Virus record (IMG/VR): IMGVR_UViG_3300039357_000038
Coordinates: 1 to 4,376 of that record
DNA: 4,376 nucleotides
DNA from: a virus
Taxonomy: Duplodnaviria > Heunggongvirae > Uroviricota > Caudoviricetes
Direction: 5' to 3' (one strand)
Shown: piece by piece, positions 1-4,376 of the stretch
Layout: the number at the start of each line of letters is the position of its first letter
Position numbering within the stretch: the first letter of the stretch is position 1
Made by a program: the position numbers and the translations under genes
The notes under the pieces: model-generated
Told to the model about the DNA's origin: nothing
The model's database searches: none
The model's input: the letters and a program-made list of their open reading frames with translations, nothing else

Positions 1-294
1 GACAGCATACTCAAAGCCGGTCAGCATCGTTATCAGCGGGCATTTATCCAGCGATTAAATAATGGGCGCTGGCATGTTATGCAACGTCTTCCCCAGGCCA
101 GATATGAGGAGGGCAATGACGACAAGGGCAGGAAAAAGCGTAATCGCCTTCCCATTCAGGTGGTGAAAATCCCGATGGCGGCCCCACTGAAACAGGCGTT
201 TGATGAGAATGTTGACCGTATCCGGCGTGAACGCCTGCCCGGAGAACTGGCATCCGCGCTGAAACAACAATTGAGGATTGCGATAAAACGATGA
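1..294 (+). CDS. Z: Minor tail protein Z, 5'-truncated by the window edge (C-terminal ~97 aa present; the reading frame is open from position 1, the track ORF 79..294 merely starts at an internal Met)
   Basis: Frame 1 is open from nt 1 to the TGA at 292-294. The translation ...AFIQRLNNGRWHVMQR...[44 protein letters not shown] closely resembles the lambda gpZ C-terminus as recalled. It sits immediately upstream of U, as in lambda. Confidence 0.8.
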   Translation, partial: DSILKAGQHRYQRAFIQRLNNGRWHVMQRLPQARYEEGNDDKGRKKRNRLPIQVVKIPMAAPLKQAFDENVDRIRRERLPGELASALKQQLRIAIKR

Positions 295-686
295 AACATA
301 CTGATATCCGTGCTGCAGTGCTGGATGCACTCGAGCAGCATGAACACGGGGCGACGCTGTTTGATGGTCGCCCCGTTGTTTTTGACGAAGAGGATTTTCC
401 TGCGATCGCGGTTTATCTGACGGATGCAGAGTATACCGGTGAAGAGCTGGATGCAGATACCTGGCGGGCCACACTGCATATTGAGGTGTTTTTACCGGCA
501 CAGGTACCTGATTCGGAGCTCGATCAGTGGATGGAAAGCCGGATTTATCCGGCGATGACTGTGATCCCGGCACTGGCAGGACTGATTACCACGATGGTTA
601 CGCAGGGCTATGAGTATCGTCGTGATGACGATATGGCGTTATGGAGCTCTGCGGATCTGACTTATTCCATTACATACGAGATGTGA
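291..686 (+). CDS. U: Minor tail protein U (tail terminator protein), 131 aa
   Basis: ORF 291..686, product [87 protein letters not shown]...[20 protein letters not shown], is near-identical in length and sequence to lambda gpU as recalled. Its ATG overlaps the Z stop (ATGA at 291-294). Confidence 0.92.
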
Positions 687-693: not shown

Positions 694-1440
694 ATGGCAA
701 CACCAAATCCCCTGGAGCCGGTAAAAGGTGCCGGTACCACTCTGTGGGTTTACAACGGCAAGGCTGATGCTTATGCAAACCCGTTGTCAGACGATGACTG
801 GCAGCGACTGGCTAAGGTGAAGGATCTGACGCCGGGCGAGATGACGGCTGAATCCTACGATGATAACTACCTGGATGATGAAGACGCGGACTGGACCGCG
901 ACCGGGCAGGGACAGAAATCTGCAGGTGATACCAGTTTTACGCTGGCCTGGAAACCGGGAGAGGAAGGCCAGAAAGGGCTTATAGGCTGGTTTGAAAGCG
1001 GCGATGTCCGGGCCTATAAAATCCGTTTTCCGAATGGCACGGTGGATGTGTTTCGTGGCTGGGTCAGCAGTATCGGTAAGGCCGTGACGGCGAAAGAAGT
1101 GATCACCCGCACGGTGAAAGTCACTAACGTGGGTAAACCTTCTGTAGCGGAAGAACGCAGCAAAATTACGCCGGTCACTGCGATTAAGGTAACGCCGACA
1201 GGTACGGTTGAAAAAGGGAAAACAACCACCCTGACCGTTACTGTGGAACCGGAAAATGCAACGGATAAGACATTCAGGGCGATTTCCGCCGATCCATCAA
1301 AAGCCACCATTAGCGTGAAAGATATGACGATTACTGTGACGGGGGTTAAGGATGGAAAAGTCAGCATCCCTGTGATTTCCGGTAATGGTCAGTTTGCTGC
1401 GGTGGCTGAAATTACCGTTAATAATGTGCCGGGTGGCTAA
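694..1440 (+). CDS. V: Major tail tube protein V, 248 aa
   Basis: ORF 694..1440. The N-terminal ~155 aa (..[12 protein letters not shown]...[62 protein letters not shown]...[40 protein letters not shown]) match lambda gpV as recalled. The position after U and before G agrees. Confidence 0.93.
1160..1437 (+). other. C-terminal Ig-like (Big_2-type) domain of the major tail protein V
   Basis: The C-terminal ~90 aa ([84 protein letters not shown]) have the alternating beta-strand character and T/V-rich composition of the bacterial Ig-like domain known on lambda gpV. Domain boundaries are approximate. Confidence 0.6.
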
Positions 1441-1458: not shown

Positions 1459-1890
1459 ATGTTCCTGAAAACAGAACAATTTGAATATAACGGTGTATCC
1501 GTCATGCTTTCTGAGCTGTCTGCGCTGCAGCGTATTGAGCATCTTGCCCTCCTGAAACGGCGGGCAGAAGAGGCTGAAGCCAGCGGCAACCTGCAGGTGA
1601 GTGTGGAAGATCTTGTCAGAACCGGCGCGTTTCTGGTGGCGATGTCCCTGTGGCATAACCATCCACAGAAAACGCAGTCACCGTCAATGAATGAGGCCGT
1701 GATGAAGATAGAGCAGGAAGTGCTCACCACCTGGCCTGCCGATGCCATTGCCCGGGCGGAAGACGTGGTGTTGTGCCTGTCCGGGATGATCGAAGCTGTT
1801 CGTCCGGATACTGATATTACTGAAGTGGCGAAAAATAACACGCTGACTGATGATGATTTTTCTGCGGGAAAGTCTTCGACGGCGAGCTGA
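1459..1890 (+). CDS. G: Tail assembly chaperone G (zero-frame product), 143 aa
   Basis: ORF 1459..1890, product MFLKTEQFEYNGVSVMLSELSALQRIEHLALLKRRAEEAE...TGAFLVAMSLWHNHPQKTQ.PSMNEAV..IEQEVLTTWP...SAGK.ST.S, matches lambda gpG as recalled. It contains the slippery heptamer near its 3' end. Confidence 0.92.
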   Translation: MFLKTEQFEYNGVSVMLSELSALQRIEHLALLKRRAEEAEASGNLQVSVEDLVRTGAFLVAMSLWHNHPQKTQSPSMNEAVMKIEQEVLTTWPADAIARAEDVVLCLSGMIEAVRPDTDITEVAKNNTLTDDDFSAGKSSTAS

Positions 1891-2330
1891 ACTTTGCCCT
1901 CAGACTGGCGCGTGAGATGGGGAGACCCGACTGGCGCGCCATGCTTGCCGGGATGACATCCACCGAATATGCCGACTGGCGACGTTTTTACCGCACGCAT
2001 TATTTTCACGATACCCAGCTGGATATGCATTTTTCCGGGCTGACGTACGCCGTACTCAGCCTGTTTTTTTGCGATCCGGATATGCATCCCTCGGATTTCA
2101 GTCTGCTCGTCCCCCGGCGTGAGGAAGCGCAGACGGAGAGGCCGGATGAGGAAGACATGCTGATGCAGAAAGCGGCAGGACTTGCCGGAGGCGTCCGGTT
2201 CGGCGAGGAGGGAGGGGGCGATATTTCACCTTCTGCGGATGTGGTGGATGTCAGCGAGGATGATGTCGCATTAATGATGGCTTCAGCGGGGATTTCCGGA
2301 GGTGTGAGATATGTCCCAGCCGGTTGGTGA
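1459..2330 (+). CDS. T: Tail assembly chaperone G-T fusion, made by -1 frameshift at 1866-1872 (G frame 1459..1871, then T frame 1872..2330; about 290 aa)
   Basis: The T-frame translation downstream of the slip site (...MGRPDWRAMLAGM.STEYADW.RFY.THYFHD..LDMHFSGLTY.VLSLFF.DPDMHP.DFSLL..RRE......MLMQKAAGLAGGVRFG...SEDDV.LM..S.GI.GGVRY) matches lambda gpT as recalled. The T frame has no upstream start between its opening at 1857 and the slip site. The Met at 1917 is internal. Confidence 0.85.
1866..1872 (+). promoter_or_regulatory. Programmed -1 ribosomal frameshift slippery heptamer G GGA AAG (G to G-T recoding site)
   Basis: GGGAAAG at 1866-1872 lies in the G zero frame as G|GGA|AAG (codons 1867-1869 GGA and 1870-1872 AAG). 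The -1 frame (frame 3) is closed by two TGA codons at 1851-1856 and opens at 1857, so a -1 slip here continues uninterrupted to the TGA at 2328-2330. Confidence 0.88.
2298..2302 (+). promoter_or_regulatory. Shine-Dalgarno GGAGG for H, embedded in the 3' end of the T coding frame
   Basis: GGAGG at 2298-2302, 8 nt upstream of the H ATG at 2311. Confidence 0.6.
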
Positions 2331-4376
2331 TCTTGTTATTGACCTGAGTCTGGATGCGGTTCGTTTCGATGAGCAGATGACCCGCGTAAGGCGTCATTTT
2401 TCAGGACTGGAGACTGACGCCAGAAAAACCGCCAGTGCTGTTGAGCAGGGGCTGAGCCGCCAGGCGCTGGCTGCACAAAAAGCCGGGATATCAGTCGGGC
2501 AGTATAAAGCCGCCATGCGTATGCTACCCATGCAGTTCACCGACGTGGCCACGCAGCTTGCCGGTGGTCAGAATCCCTTCCTTATCATGCTGCAGCAGGG
2601 CGGTCAGGTGAAGGACTCCTTCGGCGGGATGATCCCCATGTTCCGGGGGCTTGCTGGTGCGATCAGCCTGCCAATGGCCGGTGTCACCTCGCTGGCGGTG
2701 GCGACCGGTGCGCTGGCGTACGCCTGGTACCAGGGGGATTCCACGCTTTCAGCGTTTAATAAAACCCTGGTTCTTTCCGGTAATCAGTCAGGACTGACGG
2801 CAGAGCGCATGCTTACGCTCTCCAGAGCCGGACAGGCAGCAGGGCTGACGTTTAACCAGGCGAGTGAGTCACTGGCAGCCCTGGTGAATGCCGGTGTGCG
2901 TGGTGGTGAACAGTTTGATTCCATCAACCAGAGTGTCGCGCGTTTTGCGTCTGCCTCCGGTGTGGAAGTGGACAAGGTTGCAGAGGCTTTCGGAAAACTG
3001 ACCACCGACCCGACGTCGGGACTGATGGCGATGGCGCGCCAGTTCCGTAACGTGACGGCAGAGCAGATTGCGTATGTTGCGCAGCTGCAGCGTTCCGGAG
3101 ACGAGGCCGGGGCATTGCAGGCGGCGAACGAGGCTGCCACGAAAGGCTTTGATGACCAGACCCGCCGCCTGAAAGAGAACATGGGGACGCTGGAAACCTG
3201 GGCGGATAAAACAGGGAAGGCGTTCAAATCGATGTGGGATGCCATTCTGGATATTGGTCGTCCTGATACCGCGCAGGAGATGCTGATTAAGGCAGAGACT
3301 GCGTTTAAGAAAGCAGACGACATCTGGAATCTCCGCAAGGATGATTATTTTGTTAACGATGAAGCGCGAGCGCGTTACTGGGATGATCGTGAAAAGGCCC
3401 GTCTTGCGCTTGAAGCCGCCCGAAAGAAGGCTGAGCAGCAGACTCAACAGGACAAAAATGCGCAGCAGCAGAGCGATACCGAAGCGTCACGGCTGAAATA
3501 TACCGAAGAGGCGCAGAAGGCTTACGAACGCCTGCAGACACCGCTGGAGAAATATACCGCCCGTCAGGAAGAACTGAACAGGGCCCTGAGAGACGGGAAA
3601 ATCCTGCAGGCGGATTACAACACGCTGATGGCGTCGGCGAAAAAGGATTATGAATCGACGCTGAAAAAGCCGTCCGGTGTGAAGGTGTCTGCCGGTGAGC
3701 GTCAGGAAGACCGGGCGCATGCAGCCCTGCTGGCGCTTGAAACTGAGCTCCGGACGCTGGAGAAGCACAGCGGTGCGAATGAGAAAATCAGCCGGCAGCG
3801 CCGTGATTTATGGAAAGCGGAAAGTCAGTATGCGGTCCTGAAAGAGGCTGCCACGAAACGGCAGTTATCCGGGCAGGAAAAATCCCTGCTGGCTCATGAG
3901 AAAGAAACGCTGGAGTACAAACGCCAGCTGGCTGAGCTGGGCGACAAGGTTGAATACCAGAAACGGCTGAATGAGCTGGCACAGCAGGCGGCACGGTTTG
4001 AAGAGCAGCAGAGCGCGAAGCAGGCCGCCATCAGCGCAAAAGCCCGTGGTCTCACTGACCGTCAGGCGCAGCGGGAGTCTGAAGCGCAGCGTCTTCGTGA
4101 CGTGTATGGCGATAATCCGCAGGCGCTGGCCCGGGTCACCGGGGCACTGAAACAGACATGGGCGGATGAAGACATGCTGCGCGGTGACTGGCTGGCCGGG
4201 CTGAAGTCCGGCTGGGGGGAGTGGACGGAAAGTGCGACGGACAGTTTTTCGCAGGTTAAAAGTGTGGCCACGCAGACCTTTGATGGTATTGCACAGAATA
4301 TGGCGGCGATGCTGACCGGCAGTGAACAGAACTGGCGGGGATTCACCCGTTCGGTGCTGTCCATGATGACAGAAAT
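2311..4376 (+). CDS. H: Tail length tape measure protein H, 3'-truncated by the window edge (first ~688 aa present)
   Basis: Frame 1 is open from the ATG at 2311 to the window end. The translation MSQPVGDLVIDLSLDAVRFDEQM.RVRRHFSG...QALAAQKAGISVGQYKAAMRMLP.QFTDVATQLAGGQ...QQGGQVKDSFGGMIPMFRGLAGAI.LPM.G.TSLAVATGALAYAWYQG.STLS.FNKTLVLSGNQ.GLTA.RML.LSRAGQAAGLTFNQ.SESL... and later ...WNLRKDDYFVNDEARARYWDDREKARLALEAARKKAEQQTQQDKNAQQQSDTEASRLKYTEEAQKAYERLQTPLEKYTARQEEL...GIAQNMAAMLTGSEQNWR.FTRSVLSMMTE matches lambda gpH extensively as recalled. It overlaps the T 3' end by 20 nt. The reverse-strand track ORFs at 2784..3338, 2869..3447, 2924..3115, 3353..3541, 3487..3768, 3788..3994 and 4062..4364 all lie inside it. 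Confidence 0.94.
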   Translation, partial: MSQPVGDLVIDLSLDAVRFDEQMTRVRRHFSGLETDARKTASAVEQGLSRQALAAQKAGISVGQYKAAMRMLPMQFTDVATQLAGGQNPFLIMLQQGGQVKDSFGGMIPMFRGLAGAISLPMAGVTSLAVATGALAYAWYQGDSTLSAFNKTLVLSGNQSGLTAERMLTLSRAGQAAGLTFNQASESLAALVNAGVRGGEQFDSINQSVARFASASGVEVDKVAEAFGKLTTDPTSGLMAMARQFRNVTAEQIAYVAQLQRSGDEAGALQAANEAATKGFDDQTRRLKENMGTLETWADKTGKAFKSMWDAILDIGRPDTAQEMLIKAETAFKKADDIWNLRKDDYFVNDEARARYWDDREKARLALEAARKKAEQQTQQDKNAQQQSDTEASRLKYTEEAQKAYERLQTPLEKYTARQEELNRALRDGKILQADYNTLMASAKKDYESTLKKPSGVKVSAGERQEDRAHAALLALETELRTLEKHSGANEKISRQRRDLWKAESQYAVLKEAATKRQLSGQEKSLLAHEKETLEYKRQLAELGDKVEYQKRLNELAQQAARFEEQQSAKQAAISAKARGLTDRQAQRESEAQRLRDVYGDNPQALARVTGALKQTWADEDMLRGDWLAGLKSGWGEWTESATDSFSQVKSVATQTFDGIAQNMAAMLTGSEQNWRGFTRSVLSMMTE
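2629..2730 (+). other. Hydrophobic, Gly/Ala-rich segment in the N-terminal region of tape measure H (putative membrane-interacting or tube-lumen segment)
   Basis: Residues ~107-140 of H (MIPMFRGLAGAISLPMAGVTSLAVATGALAYAWY) form a ~34-aa uncharged hydrophobic stretch flanked by charged sequence. Seen directly in the translation; function is inferred. Confidence 0.4.

What the first reader, a model, noticed from the sequence alone, without database searches (positions are those of the whole stretch)
1857..2330. Intact G/G-T programmed -1 frameshift cassette (G GGA AAG at 1866-1872) with a start-less T frame
The heptamer GGGAAAG sits in the G zero frame as G|GGA|AAG, 18 nt before the G stop at 1888-1890. 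The -1 frame is closed by tandem TGA codons at 1851-1856 and opens exactly at 1857, then runs 158 codons to 2330. T therefore has no start or RBS of its own and can only be expressed as a G-T fusion. This is the lambda recoding arrangement, where a low fixed G:GT ratio is required for tail assembly. It is the strongest non-trivial signal in the window, although it is a known mechanism and not novel.
Basis: partly seen in the sequence, partly recalled or inferred. Interest (0 to 1): 0.5.

Follow-up and report, generated by a model that had tools for sequence, protein, structure and literature searches.

The report
Lambda-type G/GT tail chaperone frameshift
This is the well-known phage lambda trick in which a few percent of ribosomes slip back one base near the end of tail gene G to make a longer G-T fusion protein needed for tail assembly; it is intact here, but it is ordinary and found in most E. 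coli genomes.

Summary
GGGAAAG sits at 1866-1872 in the G frame as G|GGA|AAG. The G stop is at 1888-1890.

The window is a lambda-like tail module, Z-U-V-G-T-H. G and T match the NCBIfam equivalog models for lambda G and T, and the heptamer aligns column for column with lambda's proven slip site.

Across 370 related loci (79 distinct sequences) the arrangement holds down to about 35% protein identity. All have NNN-AAAG at the same place, a G stop 3 or 15 nt later, and no start codon in the T frame upstream of the slip.

"Start-less" needs one qualification. An in-frame ATG at 1917 is annotated as the T start by RefSeq and by phage submitters. It has a weak Shine-Dalgarno sequence and is Phe in 65 of 79 relatives. 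The conserved T peptide and the T family model both begin upstream of it.

A predicted mRNA structure starts 7 nt after the heptamer. It is probably a moderate stimulator and was flagged by Sharma et al. 2014.

Verdict: real, intact, already known. Interest is low.

The parts
1459..1890 (+). Gene G, the tail assembly chaperone gpG. 143 aa, zero-frame product, stop TGA at 1888-1890.
   Evidence: ORF. PF06894 E=1.3e-50. TIGR01674 equivalog, 164 bits. 67% identical to lambda gpG.
1866..1872 (+). Slippery heptamer G_GGA_AAG. tRNA-Gly and tRNA-Lys re-pair on GGG AAA in the -1 frame.
   Evidence: Sequence and frame verified. Aligns with lambda's heptamer. The A_AAG part is kept in all 79 distinct relatives. 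G_GGA_AAG is among the most shift-prone motifs in E. coli.
1848..1856 (+). Three tandem TGA codons that close the -1 (T) frame upstream of the slip site.
   Evidence: They arise from the G-frame codons ACT GAT GAT GAT. The position is not conserved: the frame opens 6-63 nt upstream of the heptamer in relatives.
1857..2330 (+). Open -1 frame encoding the T domain. 157 sense codons, stop TGA at 2328-2330. Only 1872-2327 is predicted to be translated, as the C-terminal 152 aa of gpGT.
   Evidence: PF06223 E=1.2e-14. TIGR01715 equivalog, 206 bits, with the model starting at residue 5 after the slip. 74% identical to lambda T.
1459..2330 (+). Predicted frameshift fusion gpGT, 290 aa. It is G residues 1-138 (1459-1872) joined to the T frame from 1872, with base 1872 read twice.
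   Evidence: The fusion matches both equivalog models end to end. tblastn finds the two halves in two frames in 185 phage records.
1917..1919 (+). Internal Met codon of the T domain (LAREMGRPDW). RefSeq/PGAP and phage submitters annotate it as the T start. It is most likely not an initiator.
   Evidence: Annotations. SD duplex -2.3 kcal/mol. The residue is Phe in 65, Met in 13 and Tyr in 1 of 79 distinct relatives. The conserved T peptide and the TIGR01715 model begin upstream of it.
1873..1956 (+). Candidate frameshift-stimulating mRNA structure. The outer helix pairs 1880-1887 with 1943-1950, with weaker pairs at 1873-1877/1952-1956. The inner hairpin pairs 1906-1921 with 1926-1941. The spacer from the heptamer to the outer helix is 7 nt.
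   Evidence: MFE -39.5 kcal/mol, z=-3.25. A similar fold is predicted in lambda. More stable than synonymous recodings in 8 of 8 lineages. 85% of cells pair against 25-43% in slid controls, with compensatory pairs at columns 16-84 and 45-72. Sharma et al. 2014 Table S4 flag a downstream structure for the gpG cluster. The role is inferred, not shown.
2311..4376 (+). Gene H, the tape measure protein (5' part, runs off the window). Its start overlaps the end of T by 20 nt. A strong SD, GGAGGTG, lies at 2297-2304.
   Evidence: PF06791 and PF09718. SD duplex -10.8 kcal/mol. The N-terminus matches lambda H.
694..1440 (+). Gene V, the major tail tube protein with a C-terminal Big_2 domain. In lambda it is the binding partner of the T domain.
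   Evidence: PF16461 and PF02368. The role of T in recruiting gpV is from the review.
1..686 (+). 3' part of gene Z (1-294) and gene U, the tail terminator (291-686). These are the upstream genes of the same tail module.
   Evidence: PF06763 and PF06141.

Best explanation
The window carries the tail-shaft assembly genes of a lambda-like prophage of Escherichia.

Ribosomes translating G normally stop at UGA 1888-1890 and release gpG (143 aa). A few percent slip instead. When GGA (1867-1869) is in the P site and AAG (1870-1872) is in the A site, both tRNAs slip back one base onto GGG AAA. Translation then continues with GUC at 1872 in the T frame and ends at 2330. The product is a 290-aa gpGT fusion with the junction ...SAGK-VFDGELNF....

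The slip is driven by weak pairing of the single E. coli tRNA-Lys (mnm5s2UUU) with AAG. It is probably raised from the bare-motif level to the working level by an mRNA stem-loop that begins 7 nt downstream.

By analogy with lambda, many gpG molecules and a few gpGT molecules coat the tape measure protein H. The T domain recruits the major tail protein V. Neither protein ends up in the virion.

Shown here: the sequence anatomy, family membership, synteny, and conservation of the arrangement.
Taken from the literature on lambda: that the shift occurs, its rate of about 4%, and the requirement for the ratio.
Inferred: that the same holds for this copy, and that the downstream structure acts as a stimulator.
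For: Anatomy: verified.

Family membership:
- G is PF06894 / TIGR01674 and T is PF06223 / TIGR01715, both well above the curated cut-offs.
- G is 67% and T is 74% identical to lambda.
- The gene order is Z-U-V-G-T-H.
- The heptamer aligns with lambda's.

Conservation across 370 loci, 79 distinct sequences:
- The heptamer is GGGAAAG, AAAAAAG or GGAAAAG, with one GGCAAAG.
- The G stop lies 3 or 15 nt downstream.
- No start codon is ever found in the T frame upstream of the slip.
- The first T-frame start codon wanders from codon +2 to +25.

Translation upstream of ATG 1917:
- The peptide between the slip and ATG 1917 is conserved across lineages: VFDGELNF, AFEGELNF, ALASELKF, VLTREMQF, VLNNELHF.
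- The window differs from lambda there mostly at T-frame third positions.
- That segment can only be reached by frameshifting.

Independent annotation: the authors of the N15 and Gifsy-2 records annotated the homologous site as a -1 frameshift.

Chance is excluded.

Literature:
- Lambda G/GT uses G_GGA_AAG, shifts about 4% of the time, and the 30:1 ratio is essential.
- Sharma et al. list the gpG G_GGA_AAG cluster as a true case.
- The same paper's reporter gave 0.28% without a stimulator and 3.8% with moderate stimulators.

Downstream structure.
Against: - Nothing in this window was tested experimentally, so the shift itself and its rate are extrapolated from lambda.
- An in-frame ATG at 1917 exists and is used as the T start in RefSeq and GenBank annotation.
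- SD strength alone does not exclude that ATG, because G's own SD is almost as weak (-2.9 against -2.3 kcal/mol).
- The stimulatory structure is only predicted. Most of its paired columns never vary, because the peptide LARE(M/F)GRPDWRAMLAGM is highly conserved.
- The mEp460 and Gifsy-2 lineages do not share the same consensus fold.
- The Stx1-type sequence is only marginally more stable than recoded controls (z=-1.3).
Confidence: 0.93

Rival explanations
1. T is an independent gene translated from ATG 1917 as a 137-aa protein, as RefSeq/PGAP (WP_071997252) and the PhiR12 phage records annotate it. The heptamer would then be incidental.
For: The ATG exists and opens a 137-aa ORF. Two independent annotation sources use it. 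G's own SD is no stronger than the one before this ATG.
Against: - The Met is Phe in 65 of 79 distinct relatives, and the first T-frame start moves between codons +2 and +25.
- The 15 residues upstream of it are conserved as T-frame peptide down to about 35% identity.
- Those residues are covered by the TIGR01715 equivalog model, which starts at residue 5 after the slip.
- No SD sits at a proper spacing: the best duplex is -2.3 kcal/mol, 2 nt from the ATG.
- The lambda literature describes only gpG and gpGT as products.
- Low-level internal initiation alongside frameshifting cannot be excluded.
Confidence: 0.04
2. The G/T split is a decayed gene. A single ancestral G-T gene would have been broken by a 1-nt indel in a defective prophage, so T is not expressed.
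For: Many E. coli prophages are defective. One relative, phage 204576, does have a truncated 76-aa G.
Against: - The two-frame layout is present at the same codon in all 79 distinct sequences from 370 loci, across lineages down to about 35% identity, including viable phages (lambda, N15, HK630, mEp phages).
- A match to this tail module (the whole 4,376-nt window as query) is found in 3,745 of 5,426 complete E. coli genomes.
- Both frames keep full-length matches to their family models.
Confidence: 0.01
3. The GT fusion is made by transcriptional slippage, with RNA polymerase dropping one A in the A-run, and not by ribosomal slippage.
For: Some relatives (Stx1 and Stx2d types) have AAAAAAG, with six A's, where polymerase slippage becomes conceivable. 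Transcriptional slippage is used in some analogous length-control systems.
Against: - The window and lambda have only three A's, and GGAAAAG has four. These runs are shorter than those described for transcriptional slippage; this point rests on general knowledge of the review, not on a test here.
- In lambda the GT ratio responds to modification of tRNA-Lys U34, which points to the ribosome.
- The invariant element is A_AAG in the correct zero-frame phase, which matters for tRNA re-pairing and not for polymerase slippage.
Confidence: 0.02

Closest known systems
Bacteriophage lambda G/GT programmed -1 ribosomal frameshift (Levin, Hendrix & Casjens 1993; Xu, Hendrix & Duda 2004, 2013, 2014, as cited in PMC5009743 and PMC7618472)
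   Same: - Identical heptamer G_GGA_AAG at the aligned position, also with 15 nt between the heptamer and the G stop.
- Same gene order, V-G-T-H.
- G is 67% and T is 74% identical.
- Same equivalog families.
- Same predicted downstream fold.
   Different: - The codon after the heptamer is GTC here and GTG in lambda, so the window lacks even the GTG that lambda's RefSeq record uses as a nominal T start.
- The G C-terminal tail differs, and the T frame opens 9 nt upstream of the heptamer against 39 nt in lambda.
- T overlaps H by 20 nt here and by 8 nt in lambda.
- T has a slightly longer acidic linker.
Near-identical prophage copies: E. coli IBS28 (98.8% DNA identity), phage PhiR12_2_star (97.3%), Escherichia albertii NBRC 107761
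   Same: Same genes, same heptamer, same frame layout, and the same three TGA codons.
   Different: Only point substitutions separate them. Those records annotate T as a stand-alone CDS from the ATG that corresponds to 1917.
N15 gene 14/15, and the mEp213, mEp460 and Gifsy-2 G/T homologues
   Same: Same families, same synteny, a -1 overlap at the homologous codon, and a conserved A_AAG. The N15 and Gifsy-2 records are explicitly annotated as frameshift products.
   Different: The heptamer is G_GAA_AAG, so P-site re-pairing is imperfect. The G stop is sometimes only 3 nt downstream. Phe replaces Met-1917. The mEp460 and Gifsy-2 lineages have different downstream folds.
E. coli dnaX and IS911/IS3 -1 frameshift signals
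   Same: All use an XXXAAAG-type heptamer decoded by the single tRNA-Lys(UUU). All have a stimulatory structure starting 5-8 nt downstream.
   Different: [quoted passage not shown] Their efficiencies are much higher, and dnaX frameshifting gives a shorter product, not a longer one.

Membership tests
Lambda-type tail assembly chaperone G/GT -1 frameshift cassette | The upstream ORF is a gpG homologue. | tested here: met
   PF06894 E=1.3e-50. TIGR01674 equivalog, 164 bits against a cut-off of 74. 67% identity to lambda gpG.
Lambda-type tail assembly chaperone G/GT -1 frameshift cassette | The downstream ORF is a gpT homologue, lies in the -1 frame relative to G, and overlaps its 3' end. | tested here: met
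   PF06223. TIGR01715 equivalog, 206 bits against a cut-off of 77. 74% identity to lambda T. The overlap is 34 nt, 1857-1890.
Lambda-type tail assembly chaperone G/GT -1 frameshift cassette | The pair lies between the major tail protein gene and the tape measure gene. | tested here: met
   V (PF16461) lies at 694-1440 and H (PF06791, PF09718) starts at 2311.
Lambda-type tail assembly chaperone G/GT -1 frameshift cassette | A slippery X_XXY_YYZ heptamer sits in the zero-frame phase inside the overlap, at the position homologous to lambda's. | tested here: met
   G_GGA_AAG at 1866-1872. It aligns with lambda's heptamer. It is the only in-frame heptamer in G.
Lambda-type tail assembly chaperone G/GT -1 frameshift cassette | The T frame has no initiation site able to give the full T domain independently. 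| tested here: met
   There is no ATG, GTG or TTG at 1857-1916, and none upstream of the slip in 79 of 79 relatives. ATG 1917 is not conserved, has a weak SD, and lies inside the conserved T domain.
Lambda-type tail assembly chaperone G/GT -1 frameshift cassette | A -1 ribosomal frameshift actually occurs at a low fixed rate (about 4%) and produces gpGT. | not testable with these tools
   This is known for lambda from the literature. No expression data exist for this copy.
Lambda-type tail assembly chaperone G/GT -1 frameshift cassette | Both gpG and gpGT, in the correct ratio, are required for tail assembly. | not testable with these tools
   This is shown genetically for lambda (Xu et al. 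2013, as cited). It is inferred by homology here.
Stand-alone T gene, as annotated by PGAP and GenBank submitters | A conserved start codon with a ribosome binding site at the annotated T start. | tested here: not met
   The residue is Phe in 65, Met in 13 and Tyr in 1 of 79 relatives. The best SD duplex is -2.3 kcal/mol, 2 nt from the ATG. Conserved coding sequence continues upstream of it.
Structure-stimulated bacterial -1 PRF signal (hairpin or pseudoknot 5-9 nt 3' of the heptamer) | A stable structure begins 5-9 nt downstream of the heptamer. | tested here: met
   The outer helix starts at 1880, a 7-nt spacer. MFE is -39.5 kcal/mol with z=-3.25. Against synonymous recoding, z=-3.06 for the window and z is negative in all 8 lineages.
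Structure-stimulated bacterial -1 PRF signal (hairpin or pseudoknot 5-9 nt 3' of the heptamer) | Covariation supports the pairing across relatives. | tested here: inconclusive
   In favour: 85% of cells pair against 25-43% in slid controls; pairs 16-84 (GC/AU/CG) and 45-72 (GC/GU/CG) show compensatory changes; 0 of 500 shuffles reach the observed score.
Against: the structure was derived from one of these sequences, most pairs never vary because of protein constraint, and the mEp460 and Gifsy-2 lineages do not fit the consensus.
Structure-stimulated bacterial -1 PRF signal (hairpin or pseudoknot 5-9 nt 3' of the heptamer) | Disrupting the structure lowers frameshifting and restoring it rescues frameshifting. 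| not testable with these tools
   There is only indirect support. Bare G_GGA_AAG gives 0.28% in a reporter, against about 4% for lambda in its native context.

The most novel reading that the evidence does not exclude
The most novel reading still open concerns the stimulator, not the frameshift. The roughly 80-nt mRNA structure starting 7 nt after the heptamer would be a conserved, selected stimulator that sets the gpG:gpGT ratio in lambda-like phages. It consists of the outer helix 1880-1887/1943-1950 enclosing the hairpin 1906-1941. It would lift the rate from the bare-motif level of about 0.3% to about 4%. Different lineages (lambda, N15, Gifsy-2) would have reached equivalent stability with different folds. 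Sharma et al. 2014 flagged such a structure computationally for the gpG cluster. I found no experimental characterisation of it in the papers I could read.
Probability: 0.45. Interest if true: 0.25.

Novelty: already known. Interest (0 to 1): 0.1.

Why it matters
This matters little as a discovery. It is the textbook case of programmed -1 frameshifting in a dsDNA phage, in a tail module that matches 3,745 of 5,426 complete E. coli genomes.

Its practical value lies in annotation. RefSeq/PGAP and recent phage submissions call T a stand-alone gene starting at an internal Met codon. That cuts 15 conserved residues and hides the true 290-aa gpGT product. A joined CDS with ribosomal slippage at 1872 would be the correct annotation.

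A secondary point follows from the reporter data. The bare heptamer gives 0.28% while lambda's native rate is about 4%. Together with the excess folding stability seen here in every lineage, this suggests that a downstream structure helps set the ratio. That could be tested cheaply.

Tried and rejected
- **Rfam.** The scan of the whole window at E<=1 gave only a spurious lncRNA hit at 2087-2268, far below its gathering score. No curated RNA family covers the site.
- **Promoters and terminators.** No promoter-like sites were found, and the only terminator-like sites were at chance level on the minus strand. Nothing suggests a separate T transcript.
- **Antisense ORF 1437-2087.** This 216-aa ORF matches no family and is taken as a non-coding shadow of GC-rich coding sequence.
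- **First searches for relatives.** The search for homologous proteins with G, and the first viral and genome scans, returned only close relatives of at least 75% identity, or lambda itself. These were useless for conservation tests. Diversity came from tblastn with the GT fusion and from scans seeded with the divergent T domains.
- **Xu et al. 2013.** The paper (PMC3762263) is not held in the library. Levin et al. 1993 could not be read either. What those papers say about downstream sequence requirements is therefore not cited.
- **Stimulation by ribosome collision.** Smith et al. 2019 found the effect peaks at an A-site to A-site spacing of 8-10 codons. The spacing is 6 codons here and 2 in the mEp460 and Gifsy-2 lineages, so collision at the G stop is not the conserved stimulator.
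- **Upstream SD-like stimulator.** None is present upstream of 1866, in agreement with Sharma Table S4.
- **Alternative slip at T_TTT (1857-1860).** P-site-only slippage is possible there, but the motif is absent in lambda and other relatives, so it is not the programmed site.
- **P0001.** This 233-aa 'G' protein was checked as a possible natural in-frame G-T fusion. It is a chimeric assembly with an unrelated C-terminus.
Full report
**What is in the sequence.**
The window is one co-oriented block of genes on the + strand:
- the 3' part of Z (1-294)
- U (291-686)
- V (694-1440)
- G (1459-1890)
- an open -1 frame (1857-2330)
- the 5' part of H (2311 onward)

Pfam assigns each gene to the lambda tail module:
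- Z: Minor_tail_Z
- U: Phage_tail_U
- V: the lambda tail tube family plus a Big_2 domain
- G: Phage_TAC_2, 'lambda tail assembly chaperone G', E=1.3e-50
- the -1 frame: Phage_tail_T, E=1.2e-14
- H: TMP_2 and Tape_meas_lam_C

NCBIfam equivalog models agree. TIGR01674 (phage_lambda_G) scores 164 bits against a cut-off of 74. TIGR01715 (phage_lam_T) scores 206 bits against a cut-off of 77.

**Checking the observation.**
- GGGAAAG is at 1866-1872, phased G|GGA|AAG in the G frame.
- The G stop is TGA at 1888-1890.
- The T frame opens at 1857 and runs 157 sense codons to TGA 2328-2330.

There are two small corrections. The -1 frame is closed by three tandem TGA codons (1848-1856), not two.

The arrangement is not a chance event.
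- Only two in-frame X_XXY_YYZ heptamers occur in 1,311 codons.
- An XXXAAAG heptamer in the last 11 codons of a codon-shuffled G appears in 0.13% of shuffles.
- Stop-free -1 runs in shuffled coding sequence average 14.5 codons and never reached 157.

**Identity with the lambda site.**
- Aligned with lambda (NC_001416), the heptamer and the 90 nt that follow match almost base for base, while the G tail just upstream diverges.
- G is 67% identical to lambda gpG, and the T frame is 74% identical to lambda T.
- The closest copies are E. coli IBS28 (98.8% DNA identity), phage PhiR12_2_star (97.3%) and Escherichia albertii.
- A match to this tail module is present in 3,745 of 5,426 complete E. coli genomes.

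The literature available to me states the following (PMC5009743, PMC3296357, PMC7618472):
- Lambda makes gpG and gpGT by -1 ribosomal frameshifting at G_GGA_AAG.
- The zero frame is kept about 96% of the time.
- The 30:1 ratio is crucial for tail assembly.
- Neither protein is present in the virion.
- Hypomodification of tRNA-Lys U34 raises the shift rate and lowers phage yield.

**Is T really without a start of its own?**
There is no ATG, GTG or TTG in the T frame between 1857 and 1916. In lambda the codon after the heptamer is GTG, and RefSeq uses it as a nominal T start. Here that codon is GTC, which cannot initiate.

It opens a 137-aa ORF. PGAP (WP_071997252 in E. coli IBS28) and the PhiR12 submitters both annotate this ORF as 'tail assembly protein T'.

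I tested that annotation against relatives. tblastn with the predicted 290-aa GT fusion found 185 phage records. The listed matches, apart from a partial one in Gifsy-2, came as two or three pieces, as expected for a product split between two frames, and identity went down to about 35%. I fetched 14 of these records and ran four further viral-contig scans seeded with divergent T domains. The result was 370 loci anchored at the slip site, comprising 79 distinct sequences.

In all 79:
- The homologous site reads NNN-AAAG: GGGAAAG in 11, AAAAAAG in 2, GGAAAAG in 65, and GGCAAAG in 1.
- The G stop lies 3 or 15 nt downstream.
- The T frame opens only 6-63 nt upstream of the heptamer.
- No start codon lies in the T frame upstream of the slip.

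The first start codon in the T frame wanders from codon +2 to codon +25. The residue homologous to Met-1917 is Phe in 65, Met in 13 and Tyr in 1.

The peptide between the slip and that position is conserved in every lineage: GK-VFDGELNF, -AFEGELNF, -ALASELKF, -VLTREMQF, -VLNNELHF, followed by LARE(M/F)GRPDW. The TIGR01715 model begins at residue 5 after the slip. The window differs from lambda in this stretch at GTC/GTG, GGC/GGT and CTC/CTG, which are synonymous in the T frame, and at AAC/AGT and AGA/AAA, which are conservative.

So the segment upstream of ATG 1917 is translated in the T frame, and only a ribosome coming from G can do that. The SD before ATG 1917 is weak (-2.3 kcal/mol). G's own SD is also weak (-2.9), so this argument alone carries little weight.

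The authors of the N15 and Gifsy-2 records explicitly annotated the homologous site as a -1 frameshift.

**Mechanism.**
With GGA in the P site and AAG in the A site, both tRNAs can re-pair on GGG and AAA. E. coli has a single tRNA-Lys for both AAA and AAG, and A_AAG is the core shift-prone element. G_GGA_AAG is among the three most efficient heptamers in E. coli.

In the N15-type relatives the heptamer is G_GAA_AAG. The A-site slip is preserved and P-site re-pairing is imperfect. This fits A_AAG being the invariant element.

**A probable downstream stimulator.**
Sharma et al. 2014 measured G_GGA_AAG at 0.28% without a stimulator, 3.8% with the moderate IS911 stimulators and 43% with the IS3 pseudoknot. 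Lambda's native rate of about 4% is therefore about 14 times the bare-motif value, which implies some stimulator.

The evidence for a structure is as follows.
- Folding 1873-1960 gives a structure of -39.5 kcal/mol, with z=-3.25 against dinucleotide shuffles. The outer helix (1880-1887 with 1943-1950) starts 7 nt after the heptamer and encloses a hairpin (1906-1921 with 1926-1941).
- Lambda folds in a similar way.
- Against a coding-aware null of 400 synonymous recodings that keep the T peptide, native sequences are more stable in all 8 lineages tested. z is -3.06 for the window, -1.82 for lambda, -1.32 for Stx1, -2.12 for N15, -2.59 for MStein, -2.19 for mEp213, -1.78 for mEp460 and -3.62 for Gifsy-2.
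- In seven of the eight predicted folds the stem next to the slip site starts 5-10 nt after the heptamer, although Gifsy-2 uses a differently built long hairpin. The mEp460 fold has no helix at that spacing.
- On 13 and then 79 sequences, 85% of cells pair, against 25-43% when the partners are slid by 1-3 columns. Pairs 16-84 (G-C, A-U, C-G) and 45-72 (G-C, G-U, C-G) show compensatory changes.

The caveats are real.
- The structure was derived from one of the aligned sequences.
- Most pairs never vary, because the peptide is highly conserved.
- A single consensus does not cover the mEp460 and Gifsy-2 lineages.

The idea is also not new. Sharma et al. Table S4 lists the cluster 'G_GGA_AAG_4, gpG, phage tail protein [true]' with SD 'N' and structure 'Y'. 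I treat it as a likely moderate stimulator with probability about 0.45. It is inferred, not shown.

I also considered stimulation by collision with a ribosome pausing at the G stop. Smith et al. 2019 found that effect peaks at 8-10 codons of A-site to A-site spacing. The spacing is 6 codons here and 2 in some relatives, so this is not the conserved stimulator.

**Other checks.**
- No Rfam family matches the site.
- No promoter-like site occurs anywhere in the window, and no terminator-like site lies on the + strand. This fits one late-operon transcript.
- The long antisense ORF at 1437-2087 has no family match.

**Rivals.**
- Independent translation of T from ATG 1917 is contradicted by the comparative data above. 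Low-level internal initiation cannot be excluded.
- A decayed, indel-broken gene is excluded, because the two-frame layout is conserved in viable phages and in a large number of genomes. A truly decayed copy looks different: phage 204576 has a 76-aa G.
- Transcriptional slippage is unlikely with only three A's. In lambda the ratio depends on tRNA-Lys modification.

**Verdict.**
The finding is correct and well described. It is an intact member of the lambda G/GT programmed -1 frameshift family, which is already known. Interest is low.

The useful by-products are two. First, current RefSeq and GenBank annotation of T in these prophages, a stand-alone CDS from an internal Met, is probably wrong. 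Second, there is added support for a previously flagged downstream structure.

Noticed in passing
L005-L012 and L014 (checked); L013, L015-L017 and L019-L021 (not checked): The genome-contig hits in unrelated organisms sit on low-coverage contigs. The hosts include Neobacillus, Oceanobacillus, Pseudomonas, Kitasatospora, Shewanella, Chromatium and Leeuwenhoekiella. The nine loci I checked are 100% identical to phage lambda over the 839-nt G-T region, so they are lambda DNA carried over into public assemblies and not native prophages.
   Followed up: yes
MW057783.1 (hit H59): 'Campylobacter phage CJLB-4' is 48,361 bp. Its G/T match has exactly lambda's scores and sits at nearly lambda's coordinates. 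The record is probably phage lambda, or a very close derivative, and not a Campylobacter phage.
   Followed up: no
window 1917-2330; L022 3416-3829; L002 2959-3372: RefSeq/PGAP and the PhiR12 phage submitters annotate T as a stand-alone CDS from the internal ATG. Lambda's RefSeq record annotates T from a GTG that overlaps the heptamer. None of the fetched records that annotate these genes gives a joined, ribosomal-slippage CDS. Only the N15 and Gifsy-2 records mention the frameshift.
   Followed up: yes
window 1841-1860: The three tandem -1 frame TGA codons are a by-product of the G-frame codons ACT GAT GAT GAT, which encode the peptide TDDD. This acidic G tail is specific to the window's subgroup. 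Lambda has a different tail, and its T frame opens 39 nt upstream of the heptamer.
   Followed up: partly
window 2297-2330: The H start (ATG 2311) overlaps the end of T by 20 nt, against 8 nt in lambda. Its strong SD (GGAGGTG, -10.8 kcal/mol) lies inside the T coding sequence. T ends ...GGVRYVPAGW here and ...GGVRYG in lambda.
   Followed up: partly
L116 (phage 204576, CP025907.1) 301-531: This relative has a G ORF truncated to 76 aa, and the tblastn match comes in three pieces. It appears to be a decayed copy of the cassette, and it shows what a broken version looks like.
   Followed up: partly
window 777-783: The only other in-frame X_XXY_YYZ heptamer in the window is A_AAC_CCG in gene V. 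The -1 frame of V closes within at most 23 codons of any point, so there is no sign of use.
   Followed up: partly
P0001, P0074, P0077, P0082: Several database 'G' proteins are longer than expected (217-251 aa) and combine PF06894 with unrelated domains. P0001 turned out to be G fused to a dehydrogenase-like sequence. It is likely a chimeric or misassembled contig and not a natural G-T fusion. The others were not examined.
   Followed up: partly
L107 (Stx2d_112808) 660-1058; L108 and L113 upstream of G: The Stx2d-type T frame is shorter (132 codons), and a gap separates it from H. The N15, mEp460 and Ayreon records annotate a rho-independent terminator between V and G. The window has no such feature, because only 18 nt separate V and G.
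   Followed up: no
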